DNA of 64,000 bases from Zootoca vivipara. Lineage: Eukaryota. Every line of letters begins with the position of its first letter. Positions within the stretch are counted from its first letter, which is position 1. The notes under the pieces were generated by a model. That model worked only from the letters and a program-made list of their open reading frames with translations, ran no database searches and was not told the origin of the DNA. Of the stretch, positions 9,421 through 55,697 are shown in pieces. The DNA is taken from contig NC_083282.1 of assembly GCF_963506605.1 (NCBI RefSeq), positions 49,042,001 through 49,106,000 of the forward strand, in the 5' to 3' direction. Made by a program: the position numbers and the translations under genes.

Positions 9421-9430
9421 CCCCTCCCCT

Positions 9431-13501: not shown

Positions 13502-13610
13502 TCTGGGTTCCTTGGGTCCTGGAGCTGAAGCCTGGATGCACGGTGCGATGCAGCGGTGCAGCAGGTGGCGGTGCTGCGGTGCAGTGCGTGGTGGCGGTCA
13601 GCTCAGCAGG

Positions 13611-13628
13611 ATCCCATCCTCATCGCCG
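13611..13628 (-). promoter_or_regulatory. Primer binding site, tRNA-Ser(GCU)-like
   Basis: Minus strand CGGCGATGAGGATGGGAT lies 1 nt after the 5' LTR; 16/18 match to the complement of the vertebrate tRNA-Ser(GCU) 3' end (TGGCGACGAGGATGGGAT), as recalled. Confidence 0.8.
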
Positions 13629-13629
13629 G

Positions 13630-20789: not shown

Positions 20790-20966
20790 CTCTTTGCAGG
20801 CGTGCAGCTCCTCTCCCGGAGTAGCGGCGCCTGCCCAAAGCAGCAACAGCAGAGAAAGGAGGAGAAGCGGCAGGCGCCTCCGCCCGAGCTCGGCACCAGG
20901 GAGCCACCGCCAGCACCCAGCTGTATCCGGCCGAGAAGGATGGACACCGCCAGCGGCCCCAGCCAT
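20790..20966 (-). CDS. ELAPOR1: ELAPOR1 (KIAA1324/EIG121) exon 1, signal peptide; remaining exons lie left of the window
   Basis: MAGAAGG...RRRLPLLLLSLLLLLWAGAATPGEELHACKE then a GT donor; resembles human LLLWAG...GPELHACKE at the end of exon 1; CpG island; head-to-head with CFAP276 as in human. Confidence 0.9.
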
Positions 20967-21646
20967 CGTGGCGCAGGAGCAGCCCCAAGGCACCGATCAG
21001 CTTCCCCGCGCGTCTGGATGAGGCGGCCACCGACTCACAGGTGCAGCGGCGGCAAGAGCAGCCAGCAGCAAGCAGCGCTCTCAGGCGGAGATGGGATGCG
21101 GGAGCCCCGCCCCCTGACCGCCTCGCGCCGCCCACACCTCGCTGCCTAGCAACCGCAGCTGCCTCCGCCGCGCCGGCCTCCGGCTCCCGCGCACCTGAGG
21201 CGGCTTGAAAGATGCGCCTGGGGACAGAGGCCGTTTGCTGCTGGCGCGCGCAACTTTCGAAGGGCGCGAGAGCCTCTTGGCGCGCTCGCCGCGGCCGCCG
21301 CGTGAGAGGCCGCGCGAGCATAACAAACAATAGCCCGCCTAATTCTGAACAATAGGAAACGGCGTAGCCGGAGGGAAAGAGGCTCAAGGGTTAGGGTGCA
21401 ATCCTAACCTCCTTGGCCTGGGAGTCAGCCGCGTTGGATTCAGCAGGAGTTGTTTCTGAGTAGACACGGTTAGGCTCGCTCTGGGAACGACTAGGCCGAG
21501 GCGCAGCCACACCACCTACTCAAACCACTCCAAGGGGTGAACAACTTGAATTTGGGCGGGGGCGATTAAGCCCCACCCCACATATCGATCACATGACATA
21601 CACACTATTTGAATGACGATGCCCATCAACTCTGCGGGGCCGTTCC

Positions 21647-29458: not shown

Positions 29459-30683
29459 GAGTTTTGCATGGCCATGATGCTGCTTCTGTCCTTTCAGCCT
29501 GTGTTTACATGTACTGTACCTGAGTTAAGTCTTCAATGTTTGCTTTCCTTTTAGGATCCTTGATTAAACCACCCAACTTCACTGAATTCTAGTAGCAGCA
29601 CAGCTATACTGTTCCCCAGTAACGTACTGTACTTGAGAGGAACAAACTGCTTCTTGCCTATGAGCAAAGTCCACGTTATCAGGCCTGGTAAATCCAGAGA
29701 TTTTGGTTAGGAATTGAATCAGTTAATCTGAATTGAAGTCCTAAAAGGATAGCATTTAGAAACTATCACTTTAGGCAGGCAGTGCACTCTCACAATGAAA
29801 GATGCCAAGGTTAAACTGCTGCAAAAGCAATTTCTCTACGGTACTAATCCAGGCAGCTAGCTAGTTTCACTATGTTTAAAAAGGGCACTGCACACATGGA
29901 CAGGAATGCCCATCTTTATTACGACTGAGTCTTTATTACTACTGAGTCTTGGCTACCCAAACAAGTCCAAGGGCTGAACTCTTACAGAATTAAAGCCAAT
30001 AGTATGTTGAACATTCAAGAAAAAATACACTCAAATGACAACAGGTCAATTATTTCTCAATTTAGCCTAGCAAGCAATCTCCGTAAGTATGTCTTCCTCC
30101 TCTCAACTCCAAAAGCACATGAAAATGCTGACAGGTAGAAGGAATTGTAGATTCCCTTTGTCATTTTGAGAACTTAAAATTAGAGGAGGCCTGCTTTCTG
30201 AAATGTTAACCACCAGAGGCCATTTTAATTGTTAGTGTATTATCAGCCTCCACATGACGGGCACAATTTGGGAAACATTGCACAGCTCCACAGAAGGAAC
30301 CACGCAACATGCAAACGTTGTGAACTCTTTGAATAGAGCATGTGTCCGTCTATAGCAGAAGCTTATGGCACCTTAAGGACTTAACAAAGCTTTGGCGGAC
30401 TACAACCCATCTCACCATCAGTCCATTAGATGGAATGAAGTCTAGGGGCTAAAGCATGCCAGAATTAATTGTTCCAAGTTGTTTTCGCACCGCAAATTCC
30501 ATTAGCATTTATTGGGAAGGCCTTTTCAAGAAAGCCAGCATCCTTGTGCTGCCGAACGAAGGAAAACTGGGAGGCAGCTTCTGCGAGGGACGGAGATGGA
30601 GAGCGGGAGGCGCTATTGCAGCAAAGGAAGACGCCCGAGGCAGGAACAAAAGAGCGGCTCAGGCAGAGCTGCTGCGGTCGAGC

Positions 30684-31080
30684 CGGATCAGAATCGCTCC
30701 GATACACATTGGCCAGGAGGAGGGGGAAGGGCACCCCCCCCCCCGCAGCCTCCAGCCTCATCTATCTGATCAGTTCATCACCTCCGGCTTAAAACTGCCG
30801 CCCGCTCGCTTAACCTGCTTCACTGCACAGCGCCCAAGGGCTTCGCAGGGAGAAGGGTTCTTCTCATCTCAGGCCTGGGGAGGCGGCAACAGCCCGGCCC
30901 GATCAAATAAGATCAACGTGTAAATGGGAGAAAGAAGCGCAGGGGCTCCACACGCGCGCCACTCACCACACACATACACGCCTCACGCAGCGCACACACG
31001 TCCTAGCATCCCCACACATACCTTCCGCGCCCCACCACAGCCACACACCACTCGCTCTGCCCCTGGCTACTCACTGAAGA
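30684..31080 (-). ncRNA. SCARNA2: SCARNA2 (mgU2-25/61) box C/D small Cajal body RNA; ends approximate
   Basis: GU-rich 5' domain. UUGAUCUUA (30916-30908) plus UUGA box pairs with U2 nt 22-30, putting G25 at the D+5 position. Box C GUGAUGA (30781-30775); AUCAGAUA plus AUGA box pairs with U2 nt 58-65, putting C61 at D'+5. Terminal CUGA at 30691-30688. Syntenic between TMEM167B and CFAP276. Confidence 0.93.
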
Positions 31081-31103
31081 AGGGCCTCGCGCCCCGCCTC
31101 CAG

Positions 31104-38074: not shown

Positions 38075-38206
38075 CTTTGTAGAATACCCCCCAGACGCCC
38101 CTCTTCTCCGACAGCAGCCAGACTTTCAGCCGAGGCACCTTCCGGAAGTAGGCGCAGGTGCACACGAAGAGCAACCCGAACACCAGCAGCCCGTCCAGCG
38201 AATACA
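38075..38206 (-). CDS. TMEM167B: TMEM167B exon 2
   Basis: [44 protein letters not shown]; near-identical to human Kish-B; AG/GT bounded. Confidence 0.96.
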
Positions 38207-38460
38207 CTGCAAGGGGAGAGAGAGAGAGAGGCCGTCTGGAGTCAGGGCCTCCCAGCTCTTAAGGGTGGCGGCCAGCAGGGAGGGGGGGAAGGGGTCTAGC
38301 GAATAAGCCCCCAGGCCAGCCTCTGGCCCTTGCCCCGAGGGCCGCCCCGCTCTGGAAGTTGGGGGTGGTGGCAGTTAGTCTGGGGGTAGGAACAAGGCGA
38401 AGGGTCACTTTGCGGGGCAGCCCACGCTGAGGCAATCCCCCCCCCCCGCACCCGTCTCAC

Positions 38461-38470
38461 CGTTAGCCAT
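38461..38470 (-). CDS. TMEM167B: TMEM167B exon 1 (ATGGCTAACG)
   Basis: M-A-N-(V) followed by GTGAG donor inside a CpG island; 10+132+83=225 nt gives 74 aa. Confidence 0.92.
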
Positions 38471-41041
38471 GACGGAAACCCGCAAGGCCCAGACCAGGTC
38501 TCGTCACCGCATCGCCCAGAACGAACGAACGGCCAGCGCGGCACCGGAACTTCCAGTGCCGCCAATTGAGCTCCGGCGAGGGAGCGCTCTCTATGGCTCT
38601 CCTCTTCCTAGAAAAGCCGGCGCGAGTGTGTCGAAATTCAAGGCAGCACTAGCAGAAGGACGGCTGGTCGATTTGTTTCGAGAGCGCGGTAGCTTGTCAA
38701 CGGCGCGTCTCGCGACCGGATTTCCTGCTGTCTTTTGTTTCACAGCGGCAACGAGGACATCTGCTCGTATGAAAAGGCAGTGCAGAAATCCGGGACTGTG
38801 TTGTTGAAGTGCTGTTTGGCAATGGTAGCCACACGCCTTAACCTTCTTTTTTTAAAAGGGGGGGGGCAGTATTTTAAACTCGATCTTCTTGTGGGATGCG
38901 AACATGTGGATGGGGCGGGATCACCTTTCTTCTAGCTTTTTTAAAAATCGCCCTGCAGATGATTCTGTAGTAGCAGAAAAATAAACTGCTCAATATTGTT
39001 ATAATTTTCTCATAGCTAATGCGGGAAGCGACGCTTACAACAACCCTGTCATGTAATCCAGTGTTACTTATCTCCATATTATAGATATGGGAGTAGGAGT
39101 TACGGTTACTGTGCATTATAATCGTCCCTCAGACGGGCTTATACTTCCAAGAGCTGTCATCTAATCGAGCACTACTGATGAAATAATCTTTTCTAAAATA
39201 CTGCAATGCTGCTCAATATTCACATATAATTAAAACAAAAACAATCTATATAAACTACTTACAATACAATATGTCATAGACCAGCATAAAAGGGTGCGAT
39301 ACTTAAAAAATATAAAACCACTTAATTAAAAAATTAAGCAGTGTGTAAGAATATAAAGTAATTACTAATAAATACAGTAGATAAAATCAGGACATACACA
39401 CACACAATAATGTCTGGGTAGGCTTGATGGAATATAAACATTTTCAGCAAGTGTCTACAGCAATATAGTGTGTCAGCTTAAATATCAATAGGTAGGGAGT
39501 TCCAAAGATTCAGAGCAATCTCAATCATCCATTCAGCCCCATTCCCCAAATCCACTGCTTACTTGTATGAAGATACATTGCATTCTTACCATTCTAAAAG
39601 AGGTCAATAGGGATCCACATTATTCCAAGATTGACTGAATTTTTATGATGTTTTTAACTAGGCAAGGGTTCTTTCTTATCTTCATGGGGTAGCGTAAAGG
39701 GCTCAGAGCATGTGAAACCTTTTCCTCACAGAAGTTCTATGGATAGGGCAAATACTAGTGGGAGAAAGAAGAGAAGGGATAATGGACACAATAGAAATTA
39801 TGCTTTCACTTAGAGGGATGAGTACTGGTAATTGTGCATCTCCAATTTAAGCCATCTGGCCAAAACAGAAGCCTCATCTGGTAGGGAAATGGCAAGACAC
39901 CTCCCCCCTGCCCCCTCCCCCGCCATACAACACTAAAAATAGTCCTGTAGCAGTAGCATTCTAATCTCTAGTCACACAGCTATTCTACCACATGCACAAA
40001 ACTACTAATGGAGTGTCCAGTCCTATCAATGAGAACTCAGAAGGAAGTCCCATTGTGAATAAGGTTACAGCCTTAATGTGACTTTTGTGTGGATGTGTAT
40101 AGGATTGTGCTATAAAATAAAATAAAATATGTGGGTTCTACAAGCTGCTTCCCCATCCTCCCTTTACTGAGAATTTTATTTGTTGAAAAGAAACTGAAGG
40201 CAGTTCCAGAATCCCAAAGATTCTGGATTCGTTTAGGAATGACAATTTTTCATACACTGGTACAGAATCACAAAATGCAGTGTAACAAAATGTAATCTTC
40301 ATAAATGGCATGAACAAAAATTTCCTGCACCGGGGTCACAACCGCAGTGAGTTAACTGGCTACCGCTGTATGGGGGCAGCAGGTGGGCATTGGCAGCAGC
40401 ACTGGTGAAGCTTCTAGAGATGCTATGGGGATGTCTGCCATGTTCCCACCAATTTGGTATTTTCTACCCATGTGTACTCCCCTTTCTCAGCTGAGCTATA
40501 GCAGTGATAGCAAATCCCCAGACCCGGCAACGTAATTGGTGTTTAGGATTGCTCTGTTAAGATGTTAGCCCAAACAACTTTATCTGATTTGTAATCATCT
40601 AAAGGGTGCATAATCAAGTACTGTACCGGTAATCCATTTTCTGCTGAACCTTGTTGATACCTTAAGAAATGTTTCAGTGCTCCAGACTTGGAAAATGACA
40701 TCCTCTGCTTAATCAGCCAAAGGTTCTTAAAGGAACATGTCACATGACACCTGTTCCCCCCCCTTTATTTTTTACATCCAACAACACACCCAGGGATTAG
40801 TCTAAGGGCTTTAATGGGTTTTGTGAAGAGCCTGCTAAAAGAAGCAGGGCCCATCCACAATCACATTACCGTCTCCACTGCCAAGAAAATCAACAGGAGG
40901 ACTTGGTTCACAGGTGTTTTTCTAGAAGAAAGTGAAGCCCAGTGCTAAACTGTTCTGGCACAGTAAGTACTTCAGAGACAACATTCCACAGCTTTAAAGG
41001 AAAGGAAAGTGAGGAGGGAAAAGCTTCCTTCAGTCAGCGCC

Positions 41042-41065
41042 ATGGGGGCCTCCCAGTCAAAACGG
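41042..41065 (+). CDS. FAM107-family gene, predicted exon 1 (MGASQSKR)
   Basis: Strong Kozak GCGCCATGG and consensus donor CGG|GTGAGT; phase fits the next exon; the link to the gene is inferred. Confidence 0.6.
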
Positions 41066-41825
41066 GTGAGTAGCTTTCTTGTTGATGGTCTGATAAAGGG
41101 GATGAAACAGGTGTTTGTCATATCTCGGAGGCTGCCCCCCTGACATCATGATGAGATCTTTTTGATCAGTCGGTCACATTCTGTTGCGTATACAGTCTTT
41201 GAACTAAGTCTATATGACAACAGAAGCATGGCAAGACTGCAATCGATAAAGCAATCTCTCGAGAGGCAGAGGTGTTTCTGATGGCTGACAACTGTGGAAT
41301 ATTCTGCTGGGGACTCTTGGAAGCTTAACCCTGAGCTTTTCTTGGAAATACTATATGACCTTTTTATTTGGGCTTAATCGTTTCATCTTGACTGCTTCTA
41401 AACTGATGAGTGGATGGGCTTTGTATAGCATGAATGATTAATTAAGTATAATAATTTAGATCTGAAATGAACAATATATATATTAGACCTCAGGGCTGGC
41501 CCATTTTGCTTCCTGAAGCGAAGGACAAGATGTCATCCCTTCTATTCCATGAATAGCAGCCACCCAGCCTGGACATTGAATCTTCCTTGACCAATGGGGA
41601 TGGAACAGGCACCGTATGGGGTACAGGGCAGTCTGTACTCCCTATAGCTGCACCATTTCACTATTAGAACTTCATTAGGGGCTAAGTACTCCCCTCACTG
41701 GTGTCCTACAGTGATGGGAGCAAAGGCATTTTTTAAATAAAAAATGTGAGCACCAACAAGGCTGCTTCTGCCTCAGAAGCAATTTCTCTTTATATTTCCT
41801 CTCCTCCTCTGTCTCCTGTATCTCC

Positions 41826-41884
41826 CGCACCCCATAGTCGCCTTTGACTGGACTTAACCGTCTAGGGGTCCTTTACCTTTACCC
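41826..41884 (+). mobile_element. Sauria SINE 3' stub
   Basis: CCCCATAGTCGCCTTTGACTGGACTTAACCGTC..GGGGTCCTTTACCTTTACC. Confidence 0.75.
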
Positions 41885-43463
41885 TCCTCTAGCACTGAAC
41901 CATACATTTCTCTTACATTTCCTAAAAAGCCAAGATAGGGAATAGACGTATTGTTCAATTGTTATGCCACTCGCAGGAAGACTAAACCCTCCATTACATC
42001 TGGACCATGTAGAGGATGTGGTATCTCACACACTAGAAAATGGTGCTGTCATATTTCTCAGAAGTGCAAAAAATGGGAACTGTTGTTCAGCGACAGTGCA
42101 GATGGACATAGTGTCATACAAATGCTTTGTGTTAATCCTCTGGTGACAGTGACCTCTCTTCAACACAGGGCTGTAATGGTGCAAAAAGTAATTGTCTCAG
42201 ACCTGTCCTGTTACATACAGGTGAAAGAAACAGCTCTTGCCCCCGTAAAACAGCCTCCTGCAGGGATAAACTCCTAGATTATACTTAATCCTGCTTCTAT
42301 GTGTAGTCATCATTTTCACTCTTACGTTGATCCACTGAACCTATCCCCTTTCCTCTCCATAGCCACCTAACCAAAATCCTAATTGAAAGAGATGAGGTAG
42401 ATCTGCCAGAAAGGCTACTTTTAGAGATAGTTTGTTCACACTTCAGCTGAAGTTTGTCTTTCTTAGGGCTCGCTCAAACTGTTGCTTAATGTGGGTAGTA
42501 AGTTTCCTGTACCTCCATGAATTCTCCACCATCCATGTGATGATCTCCATATCACTGCCTTCCCACATGTTCCCCTCCCTCAACCTGGTTTTGCTCATAG
42601 GGATGCCCTGAAAAGGAGAGGGTGTGAGAAAATCCAGATCAAGGGAGGGGAAAGTGTGGGAAGGAGAACGTCATATGGACAATGGAGAATTAATGAGGGC
42701 ACGGGAAGCTTAGTATCCACATTAAACAACAGTATGGATGAGCACAGAGCAAAGGACCACTGATCAACATTTCAAATCTAATAAAAGGGGAGAGATTGGG
42801 TCTAAAGGCAGAAGGAATACTGATGAAGCTGCATTTATGTTCCTGAACTTCATAGGCATGGAGATGATGGTTTTGAGGACAACTTTAAAGCAGCTGAGCT
42901 AGTTTTCCAGGGAAAGAGCCACATCAGATGAAGGGGAGCAGCACATACCACTCTTTAAGCATAACTGCTGAAACTTGGCATCTAAGAAATCCCTAACAGG
43001 AATGTTTGTCTTTCCCCTGAAGGATGCATTCAATCTGTTGCTGCTGCAGTGCATTCCTCCAGCAAATGTGTTGTTTGTCTTTGGAGATTTAAACCTGTAA
43101 GGATCAGGCAGGGCCAACCCTATGATTAGGTGGAGGGAAGCAGCTGTCTCAGGTAGTGAATGCAACTGCCATGCCCCCGTTGTTCCATTTCTCCCATCCT
43201 CCTGAACTGACACCCTGGCAGCGGCCAGTGGTCTCACCTAGTGATCTCCCAGTGCAGATCCTTGACCTAGCAAGCAGGAAGAGAGGGAGCCAGCCCAGGC
43301 TACACAGCCCAGTAGGCCCTATGTATGTAAATGCATTTCTTGGCACACATGACTGATGCTGAGGGAGGCATCCTTTGTCTGAGCAGCCAGCAAATGGGTA
43401 CCAGACAGGGCAGTGACTGAACAGGCAGCAGCAAGGTTTTTGAGGACAGAGCATGCTCTAAGC

Positions 43464-43599
43464 CAGGCATCCCCAAACTTCGGCCCTCCAGGTGTTTTGG
43501 ACTACAATTCCCATAATCCCTGACCACTGGTCCTGTTAGCTAGAGATCATGGGAGTTGTAGGCCAAAACATCTGGAGGGCCACAGTTTGGGGACGCCTG
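43464..43599. mobile_element. hAT (Buster/Charlie-type) MITE
   Basis: CAGGCATCCCCAAACT TIR; perfect TSD CTCTAAGC. Confidence 0.88.
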
Positions 43600-43991
43600 C
43601 TCTAAGCTAGCCTGTTGCCCTCAGTTTCAGTGGTGGACACTGCCTCTCCACAAGTGTTGAAGACTCTCTGGTCAGCTTCTGTATGGTGGAATATGTGGTG
43701 GGGAGATTGTGTGTTATCATATCCTTTGCCTCAGGCAGCAAAATGTATTGGACGGGCCCTGGATATGTGCTAGGGATGCTCTGCTTTGCCCTCAATTCCA
43801 TATGATTAGGATGTAGAAGAAATAGATGTTGGGTTTGTCTGACCTGCTGAAAGTCTATGTGCAGGTAGATTAACAGCAGCACTCATTTGCTCCTCTGTAA
43901 GACCATGCAGGGGGAAAGTAATGAGGATGCCTGTGCAGAAGCTCAGTACACTCTTGTATAATCTGCCCCCCTAGTCTCTCCTCGGTGTCCA

Positions 43992-43992
43992 T

Positions 43993-44043
<51 letters not shown>

Positions 44044-44150
44044 TTATTATTTATACCCCGCCCATCTGGCTGGGTTTCCCCAGCCACTCTGGGCAGCTTC
44101 CAACCGAATATTAAAAACAGTACAGCATCAAACATTAAAAACTTCCCTAA
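43992..44150 (-). mobile_element. L2-clade LINE 3' end with expanded (AAT)n tail microsatellite
   Basis: (AAT)n at 43996-44043 followed by TATACCCCGCCCATCTGGCTGGGTTTCCCCAGCC, shared with 52021-52390. Confidence 0.75.
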
Positions 44151-44648
44151 ATGTCTGGGAATAGGCAGGGTAGGCCTGCTGGCACCTATGCCATTATAAT
44201 AGTCTTGCATTGTTTACTTTGGATGAGGCGGCCACAAACCTGAGCCTGACAGATGACAGGCTAATCAGCAGTGGCTTAAAAGGGAAATCTCATTGGAGAT
44301 GGAAAACCTAATCTTTCAAAGCTGCACAGAGAGACCGAGGGATCCAGAATAGCTTCATCGGGTTGAGATGATCCTGTGTGAATGATCAGGGCAAAATATA
44401 AGAGTTGGGCAAATGAATGTCGTGCAGAAAATAACATGGAGTTAGGAAAATGCACAGGCATCAGACGTAAGGCAGCCTATTAGCACTGTGGATGGTGGAA
44501 AAGCTTGATTTGCAAAGGAAGGAAGGTCTGTGGGCAGCATCTGGGTATTCCAGAGCCAGAAGCGAACTGTAGTATCTGGACTCCTTTCCAATAGAAGGCA
44601 GGCAGGTGATTACGAGAGTTATTCTAATGATTTTGGGTTCTGCTAGAG

Positions 44649-44784
44649 CAGGCATCCCCAAACTGCGGCCCTCCAGATGTTTTGGCCTACAACTCCCATG
44701 ATCCCTAGCTAACAGGACCAGTGGTCGGGGAAGATAGGAATTGTAGTCCAAAACATCTGGAGGGCCGAAGTTTGGGGATGCCTG
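44649..44784. mobile_element. hAT (Buster/Charlie-type) MITE, inverted relative to the 43464 copy
   Basis: Same TIRs; TSD TGCTAGAG/AGCTAGAG. Confidence 0.88.
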
Positions 44785-45189
44785 AGCTAGAGGGTATATT
44801 ATAGTGACTGGCCAAAATATGGTCTGCGTTTTATTCTGTCTGGCTCCTTTCACCTGCTAATTTCATAACACTTTAGTAACATTGGCAAAGAGACTTATTT
44901 TTCACAGAGACTTTGGTATAAAACCTTCATGCATTGGCCAGTGAAAGAGCTGGAGATCGAGCATCAGGCAGTGGAGTGTGCTGCTGGAGTGTTTCAGCTG
45001 TTCGCCTCCACTTGTATATTTGTAAACAAACTGCAATATTACAAAATGCCATAAGCCTCCCATGATTTCCTTTCAAAGGAAACCGAACCAGGGTGAGCAC
45101 TATACCCCTGGGACGCAAGTGTGGTGAAAGCAGAAGTGCAAGCATTTGTCGATCCATTGTTTTTTGAAATGCTGCCTTTTCTGTTCCAG

Positions 45190-45226
45190 GGTGAATACAG
45201 AACTCAGAAGAGCAGTCTGAACCCAG
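45190..45226 (+). CDS. FAM107-family gene, predicted exon 2 (37-nt microexon)
   Basis: Polypyrimidine-CAG|GEYRTQKSSLNP G|GTAAG; phase 0 to 1 bridges exons 1 and 3. Confidence 0.62.
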
Positions 45227-46186
45227 GTAAGAGTATTTTACAGCAGGGTGGGAGTACCCTCTTCAAACCAAGGCTACCTTCTTTTATGTGGGGAGTGCAT
45301 GCCAGTGGTGGGTGTGGCCAAATATAAAAGTGGGCAGTGCAGTGCAGTGCAGGGGAAGTGGTTATAAAAATGGGGAGAAACTATGCAAGCATTGCGACCT
45401 CGGGGACTCACCTTTAGAGGGATGGAAAAGTGGGGGTTGTGTTCCTCTTACTCATTTAATGCATTAATTGGCCATAGCAGCAAAAGTCTGTTGTATTATG
45501 CATAGAAGGATGGCATCTATTCAGCCTGTGACTATTGGAACTTGTCCCAAGTACTCTTTTGGGGTCTAAAGGGTTTTGCATATGATCCAAATAAGAGTGC
45601 ACCTTTATTTAGCTTCTTGTTGCTGAAAGCTCTGTGCTGGTGGGGGAAAACTGCCTTGTTAGAGGTAGGGAATACTGGATGATTCTCTCCCAAGTCCTTG
45701 CCAGTATTGCACGTGTTCATTCATAAGCCCATTCTGTCTAGCTTTTCCATCACCTTGTGAAACTTTTTTTAAAACCCACATAAAAATCCGTATTCTAAAT
45801 GTCATTCACGTGGTCATTTTTTAATAGAGTTATAAACAGTTTATCAAGGTTTTCATGGTTAAATAATGGTATAAATGCGCCCCGGAGTGGTGAAAAAAGA
45901 GGTAGCAATACTCACGTAATGAGACGTTCAGTGGTGGAATTTCTGGTTTTGCCACATGGGGGTGCATTTGTATAATAATAAGAATCTGTGCAAGACTTAA
46001 CATAACAGAAGTCTTGATGGACCATCTGTGACTGACCTGATGTGTCATTTGCATTACAATGCCAACCCTGTCTTAAAGGATCCCAGAAATGGAAGTGCAT
46101 TCAAGCCCACACTTCAACTGCATGTGAATTGCCTTGTTCTCAACCAAGTCATTCAGTAAACCCCAGTTATTGAGGAAGATCTACAC

Positions 46187-46428
46187 TAGGGGTAGGCAAC
46201 CTAAGGCCAGGGGTCTTCTCAATCTGGCCCACGGACGGTCCGGGAATCAGCATGTTTTTACATGAGTAGAATGTGTGCTTTTACTTAAAATGCATCTCTG
46301 GGTTATTTGTGGGGCATAGGAATTTGTTCAATTCCCCGCCCCCCCCCCCCAAAAAATAAACTCCGGCCCACCACATGGTCTGAGGGATGGTGGACCTGCC
46401 CATGGCTGAAGAAGGTTGCTGACCCCTG
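46187..46428. mobile_element. hAT-Charlie-like MITE
   Basis: TAGGGGTAGGCAACCT / AGGTTGCTGACCCCTG TIRs; TSD ATCTACAC/ATCTATCA. Confidence 0.75.
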
Positions 46429-46871
46429 ATCTATCACTATGATACGCCTATCCAAGCCATTTCATTAACATTTAGAGATCTTTCCACAGCTCACGACTGG
46501 AATAGTTAGGGGACAACATGGTTCAAGAAAACATTGTAGCAATGGGAAGACCAACCTAGCCCCACCCACAGACCAGAGAGGGAGCAGCTTCAGGGTGTTA
46601 TGACCCTGGGGGTCAGACTCCCCCATCTTGAGTGGGTGAGGCCTGGGATTCAGAAGGGAAGAGAGAATTACTCTTCATGGGGACAGTGCTGTTGACATCA
46701 GGTCCTACTTTACACCACTCTGGAATCCTTAATGAAGAGCAGGTTAAAAATACTTTCAACAAACTGATGCTGAGCAGCTTTGTAGCCACCTTACAGTATG
46801 AAAGCAGAGAGGAAAATGTGTAATGAATTTTCTGAAGGCTTCAAAACTGTTGTCATGCCGTTATGTTCCAG

Positions 46872-47019
46872 AAGGAGACAGCAGAAGCTTTGAGCATGGC
46901 ACCTACCAGGCATCTGAAAGCCACAGGAGCCTCATTGAGCCTAAGAAACTGCCAAACCCAGTGAGGGAGTCCAAGTACCATCGGGAGTTGCACCGGGAAC
47001 TGATTTTCACTCAAAGGAG
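46872..47019 (+). CDS. FAM107-family (DUF1151; FAM107B-like) gene exon 3
   Basis: ...LIEPKKLPNPVRESKYHRELHRELIFTQRR, the FAM107 signature (cf. LIKPKKLLNPVK..HQELHRELL); AG|GTGAGT donor. Confidence 0.9.
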
Positions 47020-47361
47020 GTGAGTGTCTTTAATCCAGGAATTGCAGTAGTTTAGGCACTGAAGCTATGAACAGAGAACATACAATGCCTTTAAACCATA
47101 CATTGGCACCTGAGGTGAACCAGAAAATGGTGCTACCCTGGCCAAGGAAGAAGAGTTGAGTGAAGATCTGCATTGGGAACAAGGCGGGGAATCAAATCAA
47201 TCTTACATGACTGTTGACGTGAGAATTAAAGGCTGTCAGAGGGCAGGGGCTGCTCTGAATCATACCAGGGTGGTGCAGAACCCAGGAGATCCCAGAGGGT
47301 TGCCAGGACGTGTCCTCTTTTTCATGGGTAGAGTCGTCATAGCAATCCATAGTTATAAGTA

Positions 47362-47726
47362 AAGGTAAAAATAAAGGTACCCCTGACTGTTAGGTTCAGT
47401 CGCGGAAGACTCTGAGGTTGCACGCTCATCTCACCCTATAAGCCGAGGGAGCCGGCATTTGTCCACAGACAGCTTCCGGGTCAAGTGGCCAGCATGACTA
47501 AGCCGCTTCTGGTGAACCAGACCAGTGCACGGAAACACCGTTTACTTTCCCGCCGGAGCGGTACCTATTTATCTACTTGCACTTTGACGTGCTTTCAAAC
47601 TGCTAGGTTGGCAGGAGCTGGGACCTAACAACGGGAGCTCACCCCGTCGCGGGGATTCGAACTGCTAACCTTCCGATCGGCAAGCCCTAGGGTCTGTGGT
47701 TTAGACCACAGCGCCACCCGCGTCCC
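47362..47726 (-). mobile_element. Full-length Sauria SINE with 13-bp TSD
   Basis: TSD ATAGTTATAAGTA at 47349-47361 and 47728-47740. Confidence 0.92.
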
Positions 47727-48631
47727 TATAGTTATAAGTAGAAGTCTGCAAATGTGTCTTCTTTTTTGCTCTTCAAAATCTGGCAACCCTAAGAGGACAG
47801 CCCCCGCCATTTCCTCCCTAGAGGTGGATGGAGGCCAGTAATGCCTCCTATTTGCCGAGGAGGAGGCAGATCTAGCAGCCATTCCTTGGATGCCCAATCG
47901 GCTGTCCTTTTGGATCCTGCTGCCCAAGGTGGTGGCCTCACCTTGTCTCATGGGTGGCCAGCCCTGTGTTTAAAGCACATTTAAGGCATGTGACTTCCCC
48001 CAAAGAATCCTGGGAGCTGTAGTTTAAGAGTGCTGGGAAGTGCAGATCTGTGATGGGTAAAGTACAGCTCCTATTATTCTTTTGGAGGGGTGCTTTAAAC
48101 AGATGGAATGTACACAGTTCTTCAAGGGAGTTGGCCCTCCTGTTCTACCTGCAAAATCAGGGGAAAGGATCCTGCAGGGACCAACAAACCAAGACACAAG
48201 ACACCAAGTATAAATAAAATAAGTAGCACAATCTCTGTTGGGTGTGGGCCCATGAGATATCTCTCAAAAGCACCTAAACCTAGCATCCAGTATGGCAACT
48301 CGGGATGCCCACTGAGCTAAATAAGAAAGGGGGTTTTGCCCAATATACAGGAGAGAAACCACCTTGGGACTCCCAATCAACTTGACTGGGCACTGGAGGA
48401 GGAGGGCTTGGAAAATAACAGTCCAATTCTTACAGAGCCCATATTTAGCTCTTCATAGGTCTGATAAGCTAAGCATGTGCCCATACATAATATAGTTGAT
48501 TTATTTTGTCAGGAGAACCCTGGGTTATCATGAAATGTGGTGAAAGGAGAGGGGAGTGGAATAACAGACATTGTGGAAGGGAAGAAAGGCCCACAAACGT
48601 CTGCTTTCGTGCTGTGTTGTCCTTTCTGTAG

Positions 48632-48776
48632 GGGGATCCTTCCAGAACACAAGCCTGAGCTTCAGAGAGTTCTAGAAGCCAGAAGAATCAAGCAGCTGAA
48701 GCAGCAGGAAGAAACCCAAAAGCCCTTGACAGATCTGGAAGAAGAGCTGAGAAAACGACAGCAGAAGCTTGACCAG
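48632..48776 (+). CDS. FAM107-family gene exon 4
   Basis: GILPEHKPELQRVLEARRIKQLKQQEETQKPLTDLEEELRKRQQKLDQ; KPELQRVLE motif and coiled coil; phases match. Confidence 0.9.
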
Positions 48777-49278
48777 GTCTTTAGCATCTGTTCCCCAGTT
48801 AGCTTTTCTGGATGTACCACAACATCACGTTTGTCTTATAACCTCCTTCATCCTGCTGTGATCAGTCCATATTATTAATCCCTAACACACACCCAGCTCA
48901 GCAAGGCTCATTTGTCTTCCTAGCAAAAACAGCATCTAATCACAAAGAATCCACTTTACCCCTCACAGAGCTACAATTCCCAGCACCCTTAAACTACAGT
49001 TCCCAGGATTGTTAGGGGGTGTAGTGTCTACATTGTATTGTACCCTTCTCCCTTGTGCCAGCCTTCCCCTCAGGTGTGACCAGCACCTCCTCTCTCAGTT
49101 CCTTCTCCATCATTCATCTGGAGAGGTAAAGATAGCCAGTTCTCCTTCCAGGCCCAAACGCACACACACAGTTTTGATATTACGCAGACCCTGTCCTCCA
49201 AACACCTCTTCCCTTCTGGTAAGCAGATATTGCTGTGTTTTTACTGTTTCAAAAACACACCAAATCAGTTTTAATCAG

Positions 49279-49731
49279 AAGTGACAATGGGACACAAAGG
49301 TGGAGAGCAAGTATAGTACCCGCTAAGGAAGAAAGGCAGTTAAAACATTCAAATATGCTGTGAACTGGCTGGTCTGAGGACCAGGATAAGAAAAAACGAA
49401 GATAATGAATACAAGGAGGAATGGACAATGTTTACTGACTATTTTAAGAACCAGTAGAAGCAAAAACATAGCTTAGCAGGTCTCGAGTAAATCCAGCAGA
49501 GTTGAAATAGAGTATTTAATAGATAACAAATTGGATGATTAAAAAGATGCGGATTAAGCGGAGTAGTAGAAAAGCAAAGGAACCAGGAAAAGGGTGGAAG
49601 GGAAGTCATATGGTATATTTATACTGCACATGCTGTATTTGGTACAACGTTGTAAGTGGGACAGGGGGGGGGGAGGGAGTTAAATATGCTCTCTGTTTTT
49701 GAAAATGCAAAAAAAAAGTGACAATGGGACA
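49279..49731 (+). mobile_element. 5'-truncated L1-type LINE with 16-bp TSD
   Basis: AAGTGACAATGGGACA at 49279-49294 and 49716-49731; A-tail; degenerate ORF2-like end RIRKNEDNEYKEEWTMFTDYF. Confidence 0.7.
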
Positions 49732-49734
49732 AAA

Positions 49735-49737
<3 letters not shown>

Positions 49738-49781
<44 letters not shown>
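49738..49781. repeat. (TG)n microsatellite
   Basis: Uninterrupted TG run. Confidence 0.95.
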
Positions 49782-49784
<3 letters not shown>

Positions 49785-49996
49785 CCATGGGGAGCAATGC
49801 CTTTCAAGCATTTTCAGTCCTATCAGAATTGTTGCTAAATCCAGTGTCAATGAAGCTCAGGAGTGAGTATACGACTTTCATTTAATCAAACAGTAGGGGT
49901 GTTTGGTTTTGCAATAGGCTGCAGCCTCATGTTTGTGCAGAATTGTCCCTCTGGCTAGAACCAATGAAAATATGTTGAACATTTCCTCTTTTACAG

Positions 49997-50113
49997 TATG
50001 AAAGAGAGCTGGTCTTGAAGGGCGAGCAAGATGGCCGGCCTGAGTTCATCCTCGTCAAAGAGAGCCTGAGGAAGATAAAGCTGTCGACAGAAACGGACAT
50101 CAGGCAGACATGA
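49997..50113 (+). CDS. FAM107-family gene exon 5 (stop); predicted total 156 aa
   Basis: YERELVLKGEQDGRPEFILVKESLRKIKLSTETDIRQT*; PEF-x-x-V-K-x-x-LR C-terminal FAM107 motif; acceptor TTTTACAG|. Confidence 0.9.
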   Translation, partial: YERELVLKGEQDGRPEFILVKESLRKIKLSTETDIRQT

Positions 50114-51147
50114 GAGCCAGGTGACCGCAAGTGCAGTTTCTATCCAAATGGCTCCTTGATGGAAGATCACACGGAGGAATCCTAAGATGCACCACAGCCT
50201 CCCCTTGCTGGCCTGCAGAGCCCCTGCTCAGCTTAACCTCAGGCACTGGGCAGCAGGAGAAAGTCGGAAGCAAGGACTAGCCCCGTGGTGGCTTTGGGTG
50301 GAGGCTGGCTGTCATTCAGCCATGACAGTTAAGGAAACATGGGGATGAAAGGGCAGATTGGAATCGGCAGAGGAGGCTGTGACTTGGCATGGCTGCCTTT
50401 TTAGTTTTTTAGTTTGCTGTTCAGTAATGCATCATTACAAAGAAAATACCTGTACTCTTCTTTTCATTTGTTTGTTTGTTTGTTTGTTTGTTTTGCATTC
50501 CAAGCCTTACTAGGCTCCCACCTGATCCAGGCCTCTCTTTTCTCTTTGTAAAAAAGTTGCTAATGCTCTTACCTGCTAGCTCCAGTGTCAAATTTTCTAT
50601 GCTTAGATTGAGATATAACCCACCATTAAAGCTAACTTTGGCATGGAGAAATGTGAATGGTCTGGTGGGGAGATGTATGTTTGCAACTGTATTAGGCTCA
50701 TGGATCTAATATACATGCCAGATAGTGTTTTCTGCTGGCCTCAATTTCCTACCTATGGAATTAAGGAAACTATTTCAAGTGTCTCACAGGTCACCATCCA
50801 GGAGAAAAGCATTAAGGATGGTGAGATACTCAAGTAGAGGCACAAATAGCAGGCGGATGAACTTGGGATGGTTTGAGATGGTGGGAAAGGGTTGGGAAGC
50901 TTCCTTAGCCTGACAAAGAGTTAGAAATGCAAGCTTAGCCTGGCAAAGAATAAAAAATGCAGGTGTGGAGGCAGGACTGGTTGTTTATCTTATCTGGAAG
51001 TACTGGTAAGAACCACAACGAAATTGCTAGCAGGAGGTGAGTTACAGTTCATGATGCTATTTGACTTGTTCATCTGGAGATGCTGCCATCAGTTGGTTTC
51101 AGCATACGTTACACTTATTGCTCTCCTTATTATTCATCATTTATATA

Positions 51148-51501
51148 CAGGTGAAACTCGGAAAATTGGAATATCGTCGAAAAGTGCATTTATTTCAGTA
51201 ATGCAACTTAAAAGGTGAAACCAATATATGAGATAGATGCATGACATGCAAAGCAAGACATGTCAAGCCTTTATTTGTTGTAATGATTTGTCGTTAGGCG
51301 GGTCAATTATAAATGGGATGTAATTAATGAAATGTAATAGCGATGTTTATTTTTGTATTGTTGTAACTATTTGTTTTATTACTGTGGAATTTTCAAAAGA
51401 AAGCATTTGTAAAAATTAAAAGTAAAATAAAAAATAGAAAAGTTGCATTGCTGAAATAAATGCACTTTTCGACGATATTCTAATTTTCCGAGTTTCACCT
51501 G
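51148..51501. mobile_element. Tc1-like MITE with about 60-bp TIRs
   Basis: CAGGTGAAACTCGGAAAATT..AATATCGTCGAAAAGTGCATTTATTTCAG..ATGCAACT mirrored at the right end; TA TSD. Confidence 0.88.
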
Positions 51502-52020
51502 TAGATCTCTCTTCGAGACAGGCTGCCCATGCACCTTTTCACACTCCTCTCTTTGAAGGCATCCACTGTTGGATGGGCTGGCCAGTCCAAGCCCAGTTTG
51601 AAGAGGCAAGCATACTTGGTACACTATGACCATTAAAACATTGCTGATGAAGAATTGTCGAAACAGGGCCCTGGTCCTGGGATTTTTTCACTGGAATTTA
51701 TTTTTATTGGCCTCACTATCATACTGGAATTGATTCCTATTTGAATTCATCATTACATAAATAAAGCCTTTTGAAGACTTACTTGAAATTCGTCTTCCTC
51801 CTGGCCCGAGTTCTTGCAATTTACTGTTTATTTCCAGTTTGAAGACAAAGCAGTGAAAGAAGAAAGAGGAGGGCGTTGAAGTTGCCCATCAACAGCCCCC
51901 AGGCAGCAAACTGAACAGGCGCACACAGGCCACCTGGCCACAGCCTTCCTCACTATGGTGGGCATTGTATTTCTATTTAAATGATAGGAATTATTTATAT
52001 ATTTACATAGGAAGCTGCCT

Positions 52021-52390
52021 TATAATAATTTATAATAATAAATTATTATTTATACCCCGCCCATCTGGCTGGGTTTCCCCAGCCACTCTGGGCGGCTTCC
52101 AACAGAAAGATTAAAATACACTAATTTCTTAAAGATTAAAAGCTTCCCTAAACAGGGCTGCCTTCAGATGTCCTCTAAAAGTCTGGTAGTTGTTTTTCTT
52201 TCTGACATCTGGTGGGAGGGCGTTCCACAGGGCGGATGCCACTACCAAGAAGGCCCTCTGTCTGGTTCGCTGTAACATGGCTTCTTGCAGCGAGGGAACC
52301 GCCAGAAGGCCCTCGGCACTGGACCTCAGTGTCCGGGCAGAACGATGGGGGTGGAGACGCTCCTTCAGGTATACTGGACCGAGGCCGTTT
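52021..52390 (-). mobile_element. L2-clade LINE 3' fragment
   Basis: Minus frame reads NGLGPVYLKERLHPHRSARTLRSSAEGLLAVPS...RAFLVVASALWNALPPDV, like the L2 ORF2 C-terminus, then 3' UTR and AAT tail. Confidence 0.8.
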
Positions 52391-53148
52391 ATGCTGAGTT
52401 TATGCTGAGTCAGGCTATGAGTCCCTCTATCCAGTATTGTCTACATTTACTGCCATCAACTCTCCAAGATTTCCGACGGAATCTTTAGCAGGCCTACCTG
52501 GAGAGATGTCAAGGATTGGACCTTGGACCTTTTGCATGCAAAGCAGATGCTCTACCACTAAGCTAAGGTTCTTCCCAAAAGGGAATGCAAATTAGCACAT
52601 GCAAATCTATCTTTGTCCTTTGGGGGGGGGGTGAAATTTCATCCACTTTGGCAATGTCTAAATGACCACCATACTTCTAGATGAGCTCAGAAAAAACATC
52701 TAGCCAAGGATCCAATATCTGGGGTGGGGCAAAGGGTATGCTCATGTATAGGAGGCACAGTGAACACCTATACCACACTTAAATCATGTACAGTGAGGTC
52801 ACACACACATTGGGGGGGGGGAGATTTCCCAGCTTTAGTTGTGGAAATAACCAAAGGAAGTGCCTGTCCTGAAGCAGAGCAGATGTGTTAGCCAACCTTA
52901 GCCCCACAGAACCATAATGAGCGGTGGGCATCAGTGGTTATCTGAATGGGCAGGAATGTAGGCCAAAGAGCCGATGTTGCCTTGCCCAGTGCTTCTTTCC
53001 TCATCTTAAGTATATTCTGCAGCTGGTACTGTTTGGTGATTTCCTTAAAAGGAAAACAAACCAGCCTCTCAGGAACATTTGTGTTCATTAAAGATGCTCT
53101 TTCAACCCTCCCATAGTACTATGGGAGGAAACCTGATGTTCCTAGTGG

Positions 53149-53540
53149 GTAAAGGTAAAAAAAAAGGTAAAGGACACCTGGACGGTTAAGTTCAGTCAAA
53201 GGCGACTATGGGGTTGTGGCGCTCATCTTGCTTTCAGGCCGAGCAAGCTGGTGTTTGTCCACAGACAGCTTTCTGGGTCATGTGGCCAGGAGGACTAAAC
53301 CGCTTCTGGCACAACGGAACACCGTGACAGAAACCAGAGTGCACAGAAACACTGTTTACCTTCCCACTGCAGCGGTACCTATTTATCTACTTGCACTGGC
53401 ATGCTTTCAAACTGCTAGGTTGGCAGGAGCTGGGACAGAACAACGGGAGCTCACTCCGTTGCAGGGATTCAAACCACTGGCCTTCCGACCAGCAAGCCCA
53501 AGAGCCTCAGTGGTTTAGACCACAGCACCACCCGCGTCCC
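53149..53540 (-). mobile_element. Full-length Sauria SINE with 10-bp TSD
   Basis: TSD TTCCTAGTGG at 53139-53148 and 53543-53552. Confidence 0.92.
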
Positions 53541-54575
53541 TATTCCTAGTGGATAGTCAGCCTCAGACCTGTGTCCCACATCCAGTGGTGCCATCAAGGC
53601 AGGATTTGGGGACAGAAGTCCAGGGCCCTATTTCAACATAATGAGCAGGAAGCAGGAGAGGAAGCATGAAGGATTTGTGGGAAAACATAAGGTCTAGGAA
53701 ATAATTTTTTTCCCGGTGATTGCAGGCAACACTTATTTTCTTCTTTTTATTCATTAAATTTCTATACTGCCTGTCATCTGAGGATCACAGGGCGGTTGAC
53801 AATATAAAAGCACAAAACACATACCATAGTAACAAAGAAAAGGAATAAACCCGCCCCTGCATACTTTAAAAAGCCATCAATTGTTTAATTAGCCAAAAGC
53901 TTGGGTTTTTTCCTGGCGCCTAATTTTGCACTAGCAATTTAATAGCTTTGAGAGCTCAGGTGGAAACCCTATTGAAAAATAAAGCAGTACAGTAGTGCTA
54001 AAGAGCAGAGCTTGACATTATACTCTGTGTGAAGACAAACAATTTTGTATATGCTGATCATTTCGTTTAAGAATCACTTCACATGAGGCATCCAGAAAAC
54101 AATTTGCTATTTACAGTAATAAAAAACATATATAAAACTATATATCCAAATCCATTATACTAACATCTCCATCTAAAAGGCCTGTTTTATGCATGCTTAT
54201 GGCCAGTAATTCATCTCACTAAAATAAAATCAAAATCAAAATTCTGCAACGAAAAAAGCAGTTGTCATTGAGTTTGCACATCGTGGCACACTCCACCTCA
54301 CCACTGAGTGCATATGTGCCCCTGGCCACACCCAGGAATGCCAATACCCACTTTTTGCAATCTTGGGTTTCCAAAATTAGGCTGATCTGATACCTTCTAG
54401 CTTGGCCCCACCCTTAACTCTTCTTGAAAACAAAAGGAAGTTAAAAGCAACAAGAAAACAACTTCTCAATTTTTTTTTTAAAAAGAAAGACACCCAGCCT
54501 GATACAGATCAAAGTGCTTTGCCCAGCCTATGCAGTAGCAGCACTTAATACTCTTTGGTTGGTCCTTGCCAAGAG

Positions 54576-55697
54576 ATGGAACCTGCTCAGATGGTGACTG
54601 GATCATCGATGACTGAAACCTGGAGTGGCGATTTTGAGTCATCCACTATAGACAATTATGGTGACCTGGCGAATTATGACATTTGCCACCTGCAAGAACT
54701 ACCATTTGCCTATATTTTTATCCCCACCGTCTACTACATTACTTTCCTCATTGGTTTCTTTGGGAACCTCTTTGTGATCCTGTTGATGGCACGAAAGGAA
54801 GGCCGGAAGAGGCTCGTGGACACCTTTGTCCTCAACCTGGCCGTGGCTGACCTGGTCTTCGTATGCACTCTGCCTTTCTGGGCTGTATCAAAAGCTCTTG
54901 GTTACTGGTGCTTTGGCGAGGGGCTATGCAAGTTCAGTAGCTATGCCATCACTGTGAACCGTTGCTCTAGCATCTTGTTCCTGATGGGCATGAGTGTGGA
55001 ACGCTTCCTCGTGATGACCAAGCAGTGGGATTCCAGGACCGTCAGCACCAAGAAGAGCATAGCTATGAGCTGTGGTTGCATCTGGGTGTTCTCCCTTCTG
55101 TTGGGAATGCCATCTCTATTCTACAGAAAGTTGAACCTGGTGGATGACAGGTTTTTGTGCCATGACAAGCCCTCCCCCACCTTCAGCTTGATTATGCTCA
55201 TCTTGACCTTCCTCCTGCCTTTGGGAGTAATCTTGTTCTGCTATTGCTCTATCTTCTCCAAGCTTCGGAGCCATGTCCACCTAGGCAAGAGGAGAAACAA
55301 TGCCCTCAAGATCATCTTTGCCATCGTTGGAGCATTTATCTGTTCTTGGCTGCCCTTCAACGTGTTAAAGGTATTCTTCGTCTTCACCATGGCCCAGGAC
55401 ATCCATCCCCCCTGCTCAGCAATGATGGCTCTCACGTGGGGGCTGACCATCAGTGCTTGCCTGGCATTCGTAAACAGCTGTGTTAACCCTATCATCTATG
55501 TCTTTATGGATCAGCAATTCCGACAGCAGGCCCTGAAGCATTTCCCTGCTTTCTGCAGCAAAAGGGGAAATGTGCAAAGTTCAGCCCTGTCCTTTTCATC
55601 CACAGACACAAGCCTCCTATTTGCCAGCAGAAAGAAGCCCACACCAGCAACATCAGCTCGGGTAGGAGACCCAGAGAGCAAAGGGGTAGGTTTGTAA
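54576..55697 (+). CDS. GPR25: GPR25-like class A chemoattractant-type GPCR, intronless, 373 aa (orthologue vs paralogue unresolved)
   Basis: 7TM motifs GN, LAVAD, ERF (DRY), W4.50, SWLP, NPIIY. RLVDTFVLNLAVADLVFVCTLPFW and FGEGLCKFSSYA...RC...GMSVER resemble GPR25 most closely. First ATG at 54576 has Kozak GAGATGG. Confidence 0.82.
   Translation: MEPAQMVTGSSMTETWSGDFESSTIDNYGDLANYDICHLQELPFAYIFIPTVYYITFLIGFFGNLFVILLMARKEGRKRLVDTFVLNLAVADLVFVCTLPFWAVSKALGYWCFGEGLCKFSSYAITVNRCSSILFLMGMSVERFLVMTKQWDSRTVSTKKSIAMSCGCIWVFSLLLGMPSLFYRKLNLVDDRFLCHDKPSPTFSLIMLILTFLLPLGVILFCYCSIFSKLRSHVHLGKRRNNALKIIFAIVGAFICSWLPFNVLKVFFVFTMAQDIHPPCSAMMALTWGLTISACLAFVNSCVNPIIYVFMDQQFRQQALKHFPAFCSKRGNVQSSALSFSSTDTSLLFASRKKPTPATSARVGDPESKGVGL

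What the first reader, a model, noticed from the sequence alone, without database searches (positions are those of the whole stretch)
41042..50113. A third FAM107 paralogue, absent from the human locus, with a predicted myristoylated N-terminus
Seen: five phase-compatible exons (24+37+148+145+117 nt = 156 aa) with all FAM107 motifs and an MGASQSKR start matching the MGxxxS(K) N-myristoylation consensus. Known: human FAM107A (DRR1, actin-bundling, 3p14) and FAM107B (10p13) lie elsewhere, and I know no FAM107 gene next to human TMEM167B. Inference: an ancient paralogue kept in squamates and lost in mammals, possibly a membrane-anchored actin regulator. It is split across fragments in the ORF track and easy to miss.
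Basis: partly seen in the sequence, partly recalled or inferred. Interest (0 to 1): 0.72.

Follow-up and report, generated by a model that had tools for sequence, protein, structure and literature searches.

The report
Vertebrate FAM107 copy missing in mammals
This lizard gene is an intact, ancient copy of the FAM107 family, one of four copies in this genome, found from sharks to birds but not among the mammal proteins we could search, and it likely makes a lipid-tagged actin-bundling protein; databases already list it as 'FAM107B-like'.

Summary
The five exons are real (all GT-AG, 471 nt, 156 aa, Pfam DUF1151). It is not a moved FAM107A or FAM107B: both sit elsewhere in this genome, trees give it its own clade from chimaera to birds (100/97), and AU tests reject nesting in A or B. 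Four corrections. (1) It is not squamate-specific; databases call it FAM107B-like or Zgc:195245. (2) It is one of four: a further FAM107 gene lies on contig C16, and the CUPID and PFKFB families map to the same four contigs, as expected of whole-genome-duplication copies. (3) The MG-xxx-S-K start is old, not new: FAM107A has a matching 24-nt first exon, and lamprey proteins start alike. (4) It lies between TMEM167B and GPR25, which are on opposite arms of human chromosome 1, so no single human locus corresponds. Transcript contigs of relatives fit splicing of exons 2-3-4-5 to the base, but in two samples intron 1 is unspliced, and no exon 1-2 joint was listed. No mammal member among 32 named mammal rows. 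Myristoylation and actin bundling are inferred only. New member of a known family.

The parts
41042..41065 (+). Coding exon 1 (8 codons, MGASQSKR; predicted N-myristoylation signal), donor phase 0
   Evidence: same start in orthologue models from chimaera to birds; FAM107A has a matching 24-nt exon
41066..45189 (+). Intron 1; covered unspliced by contigs of two samples of a related species
   Evidence: X1 records 1-3, X4 records 5-8
45190..45226 (+). Coding exon 2 (37 nt, phase 0 to 1)
46872..47019 (+). Coding exon 3 (148 nt): start of DUF1151, HRE motifs, first helix
48632..48776 (+). Coding exon 4 (145 nt): PEL motif and central helices; weak donor (6 of 9 consensus positions); NCBI model P0001 uses a donor at 48797 instead
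49997..50113 (+). Coding exon 5 (117 nt with TGA): PEF motif and last helix
50114..50412 (+). 3' UTR as far as the spliced contigs reach; candidate poly(A) signals at 50625 and 50949 (not tested)
38075..38470 (-). Left neighbour, head to head: first two coding exons of a TMEM167-family gene (name TMEM167B from recall and from its place beside SCARNA2 and the DUF3695 gene)
   Evidence: DUF1242 hit; spliced joint 38206-38461 in reads; translation
54576..55697 (+). Right neighbour: single-exon class A GPCR, GPR25
   Evidence: 7tm_1; in one 90% cluster with four proteins named GPR25

Best explanation
This is an intact FAM107-family gene of its own lineage ('FAM107C'), one of four copies in this genome that likely date from the early vertebrate genome duplications; it is likely lost in mammals, and its full-length protein is predicted to be N-myristoylated and to bind and bundle F-actin near membranes. 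Shown: gene structure, family membership, a separate clade from cartilaginous fishes to birds, four FAM107 loci on the same four contigs as the four CUPID and four PFKFB loci, splicing of exons 2-5 in relatives, and a homologous MG first exon in FAM107A. Inferred mechanism: Met is removed, N-myristoyltransferase acylates Gly2 (Ser6, Lys7 fit), the myristate plus a few basic residues gives weak, reversible membrane binding, a ~40-residue unstructured tether holds the helical core, and the core binds actin through its two ends as mouse DRR1/FAM107A does, stiffening cortical actin. Splicing of intron 1 may be the step that decides whether this protein is made. Odds by step: real, separate ohnologue 0.95; absent from mammals 0.85; exon 1 used 0.85; myristoylated 0.65; actin bundling 0.6.
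For: Gene. FAM107A-type and FAM107B-type loci on C2 and C10 of the same genome. Trees: C clade 94/74 with N-terminal columns and outgroups (74 rows), 100/97 on core columns (48 rows), 100/97 under the mixture model (33 rows), each with shark/ray/chimaera rows; AU rejects amniote C + tetrapod A (p 1.0e-4) and + tetrapod B (p 1.7e-5). Fourth locus C16:39.785-39.792 Mb with three open exons and the same intron phases. Splicing: 294 letters between 45222 and 49994 in X1 and X4 contigs (expected 4+148+145-3) and 144 between 47017 and 49994 in X9 (expected 2+145-3). MG-xxx-[S/G/A]-K starts in C and A clades and in lamprey proteins P0222 and P0217; FAM107A first exon C2:21219501-21219478, 24 nt, phase 0. 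0 of 32 named mammal rows fall in C (25 B, 7 A). [quoted passage not shown]
Against: No exon 1-2 joint among the listed rows (100 and 166 further joints were not shown); X1 and X4 contigs run unspliced through the exon 1 donor and through intron 1 into exon 2, while introns 2-4 are skipped. Three raw-read RNA runs (about 6% of each read) give near-zero depth on the exons. By the rule in PMC4692089 (passage) Gln at the fourth place after Met removal is not among the residues listed as allowed, and the older forms have Gly or Ala, not Ser/Thr/Cys, at the fifth. No cysteine and net +3 in residues 2-20: no strong second membrane signal. Most teleost C models seen lack the MG-xxx-S/G/A-K start. The C-terminal part, one of DRR1's two actin sites, is only 11/27 identical. 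The structure model is weak (pTM 0.25). Clade A is poorly resolved (30/29; split by D). Absence in mammals rests on protein records, 120 listed of 291 and 120 of 931 hits, not on genomes.
Confidence: 0.5

Rival explanations
1. Same ancient paralogue, but the usual RNA keeps intron 1 (perhaps starting at the CpG island shared with TMEM167B), so the myristoylated form is rare; the RNA is non-coding or decays, or a non-acylated protein starts at an internal ATG (in-frame ATG at 45169, 21 nt before exon 2).
For: X1 and X4 contigs cover about 39250-45222 unspliced at depth 11-27 and then splice exons 2-3-4-5; read-through of exon 1 stops after 33 codons; 36 ATGs lie in 39250-41041 and 93 in intron 1.
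Against: An 8-codon MG exon is kept from chimaera to birds and matches FAM107A's first exon, which needs translation; contigs drop minor forms and carry no strand; the runs are only guessed to be RNA; X1 and X4 are one study; the internal starts in database models differ between species.
Confidence: 0.22
2. The protein is made but works mainly as a nuclear or cytosolic coiled-coil adaptor, like the roles proposed for FAM107A/B with TADA2/3, not as a cortical actin bundler.
For: PMC3990222 (part 1 of 3 read) reports TADA interactions and nuclear staining; PMC6321462 reports nuclear DRR1 (figure legend). In the core, C is about as far from A (56%) as from B (52%) and is sister to B.
Against: The conserved MG..K start points to acylation, which favours membranes (inference); the HRE, PEL and PEF motifs are kept (their link to actin is recalled, not from a call).
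Confidence: 0.2
3. A translocated FAM107A or FAM107B orthologue, or a lizard-specific duplicate.
For: Database names: 'FAM107B-like' (NCBI), 'member A' (UniRef for Podarcis, Anolis, turtles).
Against: True A and B exist on C2 and C10; AU tests reject both nestings; orthologues reach cartilaginous fishes.
Confidence: 0.02
4. A decaying pseudogene.
For: Near-zero reads in three RNA runs; faster change than A or B in the trees.
Against: Open frame, canonical splice sites, 78-90% identity to other lizards, spliced contigs.
Confidence: 0.03

Closest known systems
FAM107A / DRR1 / TU3A (actin bundling and capping; PMC6321462)
   Same: DUF1151 core, 56% identical to this genome's copy; same intron phases; a matching 24-nt MG first exon in an alternative isoform (MGVAHGKK here; platypus P0268, frogs, duck, fishes)
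   Different: Separate clade and chromosome; 4 residues shorter in the central helix; Ser rather than Gly at position 6; the DRR1 work read used the 144-aa form, which lacks the MG exon
FAM107B / HITS (PMC3990222)
   Same: DUF1151 core, 52% identical; same core intron positions; sister clade in the mixture-model tree (97/97); lies beside a CUPID gene as this one does
   Different: No MG-xxx-small-K start among the jawed-vertebrate B rows retrieved; far more conserved; kept in mammals
Database entries 'protein FAM107B-like' (NCBI) and 'Zgc:195245' (UniRef, chimaera and coelacanth)
   Same: These are this gene's orthologues; P0001 is the same protein but for 7 residues
   Different: Named as B or A in many species; no paper found under 'FAM107C' or 'zgc 195245'
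Fourth FAM107 copy (C16:39.785-39.792 Mb; P0246 agamid, P0248 frog, P0243 coelacanth, P0229 gar)
   Same: Same three core exons and phases; same paralogon; no mammal row seen
   Different: Only 33% identical in the core; lacks the L-I-x-P-x-K-L stretch; proline-rich tail; first exon not found; missed by the Pfam scan of the genome

Membership tests
FAM107 (DUF1151) | DUF1151 above Pfam's cut-off | tested here: met
   39.5 and 45.8 bits on exons 3 and 4, cut-off 25
FAM107 (DUF1151) | Small, mostly helical protein with central long helices | tested here: inconclusive
   Model of orthologue P0005: four helices, pLDDT 69-92 in the core blocks, pTM 0.25; no solved relative
FAM107 (DUF1151) | Shared exon-intron layout with A and B | tested here: met
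   Phases 0,1,2,0 as in C2 copy; same core introns in C10 and C16 copies
FAM107A orthologues | Nests with tetrapod FAM107A | tested here: not met
   p-AU 1.0e-4; true A on C2
FAM107B orthologues | Nests with tetrapod FAM107B | tested here: not met
   p-AU 1.7e-5; true B on C10
Ohnologues of the two vertebrate genome duplications | Duplication older than the shark/bony fish split | tested here: met
   A, B and C each hold cartilaginous-fish rows; none was found for D
Ohnologues of the two vertebrate genome duplications | Copies lie in a four-way paralogon | tested here: met
   CUPID and PFKFB families each have four loci on C2, C7, C10, C16; the two families were chosen from recalled human maps
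Ohnologues of the two vertebrate genome duplications | Single gene in invertebrate chordates on the ancestral linkage group | not testable with these tools
   No amphioxus or tunicate genome held; one brachiopod protein (P0234) served as outgroup
N-myristoylated proteins | Gly2 with Ser/Thr/Cys at position 6 | tested here: met
   MGASQSK; rule from PMC4692089 passage; Gln5 is outside that review's list; the benefit of Lys7 is recalled
N-myristoylated proteins | The MG is the true start of a spliced mRNA | tested here: inconclusive
   Strong context and conservation, but no exon 1-2 joint listed and intron 1 unspliced in two samples
N-myristoylated proteins | Myristate attached in cells | not testable with these tools
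   Needs labelling or mass spectrometry
DRR1-like actin bundlers | F-actin binding at both ends, bundling and capping | not testable with these tools
   Only sequence likeness: 20/32 and 11/27 identity in the N and C parts

The most novel reading that the evidence does not exclude
FAM107 is a four-member vertebrate family of which mammals kept two. Its ancestral form carries a separate 8-codon myristoylation exon, switched on by splicing or promoter choice, that tethers an actin bundler to membranes; the exon survives in this gene and in an alternative isoform of FAM107A/DRR1 (seen here in platypus), so the stress-induced tumour suppressor DRR1 has an overlooked lipid-anchored form. This gene was lost in mammals when the chromosome broke between TMEM167B and GPR25, through or beside it.
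Probability: 0.35. Interest if true: 0.65.

Novelty: new member of a known kind. Interest (0 to 1): 0.42.

Why it matters
It corrects the family picture (two genes in mammals, four in this lizard) and the database names, which hide two orthologue groups under 'FAM107B-like' and 'member A'. It gives a cheap test that reaches mammalian biology: the MG first exon shared with FAM107A predicts a myristoylated DRR1 isoform, while the DRR1 biochemistry read here used the 144-aa form with N-terminal tags. And it offers a candidate case of gene loss at a rearrangement breakpoint. Lost ohnologues as such are common (general knowledge), so the base finding is modest.

Tried and rejected
A possible 14-nt micro-exon at 45079-45092 with an alternative acceptor at 45201 keeps the frame but has no support: contigs run through it unspliced and orthologues match the 37-nt exon; rejected. 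NCBI's longer exon 4 (to 48797): would give 315, not 294, letters; rejected as main form in relatives. The look-up of sequencing runs listed no holder on record as RNA: no evidence either way. A simple one-inversion model with TAF13 beside CAMSAP2 in the lizard failed: TAF13-family hits are on C16, C4 and C3, the C7 CAMSAP hit is 32 Mb from the window. First guess that the GPCR was an apelin receptor: PMC6315173 passages gave nothing; it clusters with GPR25. A degenerate pattern for the FAM107A first exon found 0 matches because this genome has Val for Ala; found by translation. First exon of the C16 gene not found in 39.76-39.81 Mb. PDB sequence search: 3 matches, all E>0.07; no fold search run on a pTM 0.25 model. 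ESM Atlas only returned DUF1151 clusters. Homodimer prediction: no verdict, job not run. Myristoylome supplements of PMC6317481 could not be read; PMC12858966 passages gave no consensus; bioRxiv 10.64898/2026.05.18.725876 passages gave no GPR25 neighbours, and its closed supplements, like those of related GPR25 preprints, might show this gene in synteny figures. Earlier scan findings: none.
Full report
Observation. Exons 3 and 4 each pass the cut-off for DUF1151. NCBI already holds this protein as 'protein FAM107B-like' of a lacertid lizard (P0001, 100% identical over exon 3, seven residues longer at the end of exon 4).

Is it transcribed and spliced so? Three raw-read RNA runs under the same species label as the best DNA holders, about 6% of each read, gave near-zero depth on the exons while the neighbouring TMEM167 joint was seen in one of them; one contig of a fourth run covered exon 3 with unlike flanks. 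Contigs of four further runs (RNA guessed, three studies, related species) were more telling: in X1 and X4 one contig goes from 45222 to 49994 with 294 letters between, exactly 4+148+145-3; in X9 one goes from 47017 to 49994 with 144 between, exactly 2+145-3; X5 showed only the last exon. No exon 1-2 joint is among the listed rows; 100 and 166 joints were not shown, and contigs drop minor forms. Use of exon 1 is therefore inferred from conservation, not seen.

Which gene is it? A DUF1151 scan of the genome gave three loci: C2 matches FAM107A, C10 matches FAM107B, C7 is this one. Homologue searches (120 listed of 291; 120 of 931; 150 of 397) found its closest relatives in lizards, turtles, alligators, birds, salamanders, coelacanth, sturgeons, gar, bowfin, teleosts, sharks, rays and chimaera; UniRef names the chimaera and coelacanth proteins Zgc:195245. 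Three trees on hand-picked subsets (74, 48 and 33 rows; truncated and near-identical models left out) hold these together at 94/74, 100/97 and 100/97. On 28 rows, AU tests reject amniote C with tetrapod A (p 1.0e-4) or B (p 1.7e-5) and do not reject A as one clade (p 0.28).

Not third but one of four. Divergent proteins from gar, sturgeon, coelacanth, a frog and an agamid form a further clade (99/97, 100/96, 100/97). Searching the genome with the frog protein found a fourth locus at C16:39.785-39.792 Mb (E 0.036); the agamid protein matches it at E 1e-12 to 1e-17 within the fetched stretch, with three open exons in the family's phases. The CUPID family (INAVA, FRMD4A, FRMD4B, CCDC120 in human; PMC6226287 passage) has four loci here, on C7 (50 kb from this gene), C10 (0.43 Mb from B), C16 (3 Mb from the fourth) and C2 (6.9 Mb from A); PFKFB has four, on the same contigs. 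The mixture-model tree pairs B with C (97/97), leaving A with D. This is what two rounds of genome duplication leave (inference).

Loss in mammals. Of 32 rows named as mammals (monotreme, marsupials, placentals), 25 score best with B, 7 with A, none with C or D; of 12 frog and caecilian rows 6 are A, 5 B, 1 D, none C. No row named as a snake or as a chicken C appears, but clusters hide members and I opened only some. PMC3990222 (part 1 of 3) says mammals have two genes. No other vertebrate genome was available, so loss rests on protein records.

The locus. The window reads: DUF3695 gene (+; CFAP276 by recall), SCARNA2 (-), TMEM167 gene (-), this gene (+), GPR25 (+), and 34 kb beyond the window a CUPID gene (INAVA by position and recall). 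Human 1p13.3 has WDR47, TAF13, TMEM167B, CFAP276, ELAPOR1 (PMC9582330 passage, no FAM107 in the text); human 1q32.1 has CAMSAP2, GPR25, C1orf106, KIF21B (PMC8776955 passage). So this gene fills the 16-kb gap between the last gene of one human block and the first of another. Since FAM107 and CUPID genes are linked in all four copies, the lizard order is likely the older (inference). Loss at the break is a possibility, not shown; apparent absence in frogs suggests the gene can also be lost otherwise.

The N-terminus. MG-x-S-Q-S-K-R is kept in lizards and birds, MG-G-S-H-A-K-K in gar, bowfin and paddlefish, MG-G-S-Q-G-K in chimaera and rays; many turtle and teleost models lack it. It is not special to this gene: FAM107A isoforms from lizard, duck, frogs, platypus and fishes start MG-x-x-H/Y-G-K-K, two lamprey proteins start alike, and this genome's FAM107A has a 24-nt, phase-0 first exon 36 kb upstream of its second. 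Gly2 and Ser6 fit the rule in PMC4692089 (passage); Gln5 is outside its list. The protein has no cysteine and net +3 in residues 2-20, so any membrane binding would be weak and reversible (general knowledge of myristoyl anchors).

Mechanism. By likeness to DRR1, which binds actin at both ends, bundles and caps filaments and probably dimerises (PMC6321462, section 2.1 and passages), I expect a myristoylated, loosely membrane-held actin bundler with a ~40-residue unstructured tether (pLDDT under 60 for residues 1-40 of the orthologue model). None of this was tested; whole-statement confidence 0.5. Rivals: intron-1-retaining RNA as the main product (0.22), nuclear adaptor (0.2), moved A/B (0.02), pseudogene (0.03).

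Novelty. 'FAM107C' and 'zgc 195245' gave 0 papers; searches on family phylogeny, synteny, ohnologues and myristoylation (listings only unless cited above) showed no title on extra paralogues or on myristoylated FAM107; two papers hold 'myristoyl' once and were not read. The library lacks most subscription journals. The gene is annotated but misnamed; it is a new member of a known family. Interest 0.42, raised by the fourth copy, the breakpoint position and the testable FAM107A isoform.

Noticed in passing
G000:C16:39784635-39791793 (L035, L036): A fourth FAM107-family gene, three open exons in the family's phases and a proline-rich tail, missed by the Pfam genome scan; relatives in agamid, frog, coelacanth, gar, sturgeon and teleosts; first exon not found
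   Followed up: partly
G000:C2:21219501-21219478 (L014): FAM107A's own 24-nt MG first exon (MGVAHGKK), matching exon 1 of the window gene; same start in a platypus isoform (P0268)
   Followed up: yes
window 38860-54576: Seam between genes that lie at human 1p13.3 (TMEM167B side) and 1q32.1 (GPR25 side); no TAF13-family hit on this contig
   Followed up: partly
window about 39250-45222: Continuous unspliced cover in contigs of two samples of a relative, starting about 400 bases from the 5' end of the TMEM167 transcript: possible shared two-way promoter with retained intron 1
   Followed up: partly
window 9045-13929: LTR retrotransposon of Ty3/gypsy look with one open 1388-aa frame (protease, RT, RNase H, integrase hits) and two identical 300-nt direct repeats, so a very recent insertion; probably in intron 1 of the ELAPOR1-like gene
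   Followed up: partly
window 30683-31082 (-): SCARNA2 with its own CpG island, between the DUF3695 gene and TMEM167
   Followed up: no
window 20715-20996 (-): ORF that looks like the signal-peptide first exon of ELAPOR1/KIAA1324 (recalled motif only), head to head with the DUF3695 gene
   Followed up: no
G000:C16:4116809-4117075: TAF13-family match in a single uninterrupted frame, beside a two-exon copy on C4: possible retrocopy
   Followed up: no
P0234 (Lingula): Brachiopod FAM107 relative with a long N-terminal extension that looks like an SH3 domain by eye; not scanned
   Followed up: no
P0083, P0130, P0163, P0179: A fast-changing teleost group starting MG-V-T-H/Y-G-K-K that groups with fish FAM107A, probably the teleost duplicate of A; often named FAM107B
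   Followed up: partly
window 52509-52566 (-): Weak tRNA-like match inside a repeat-rich stretch, probably a SINE head
   Followed up: no
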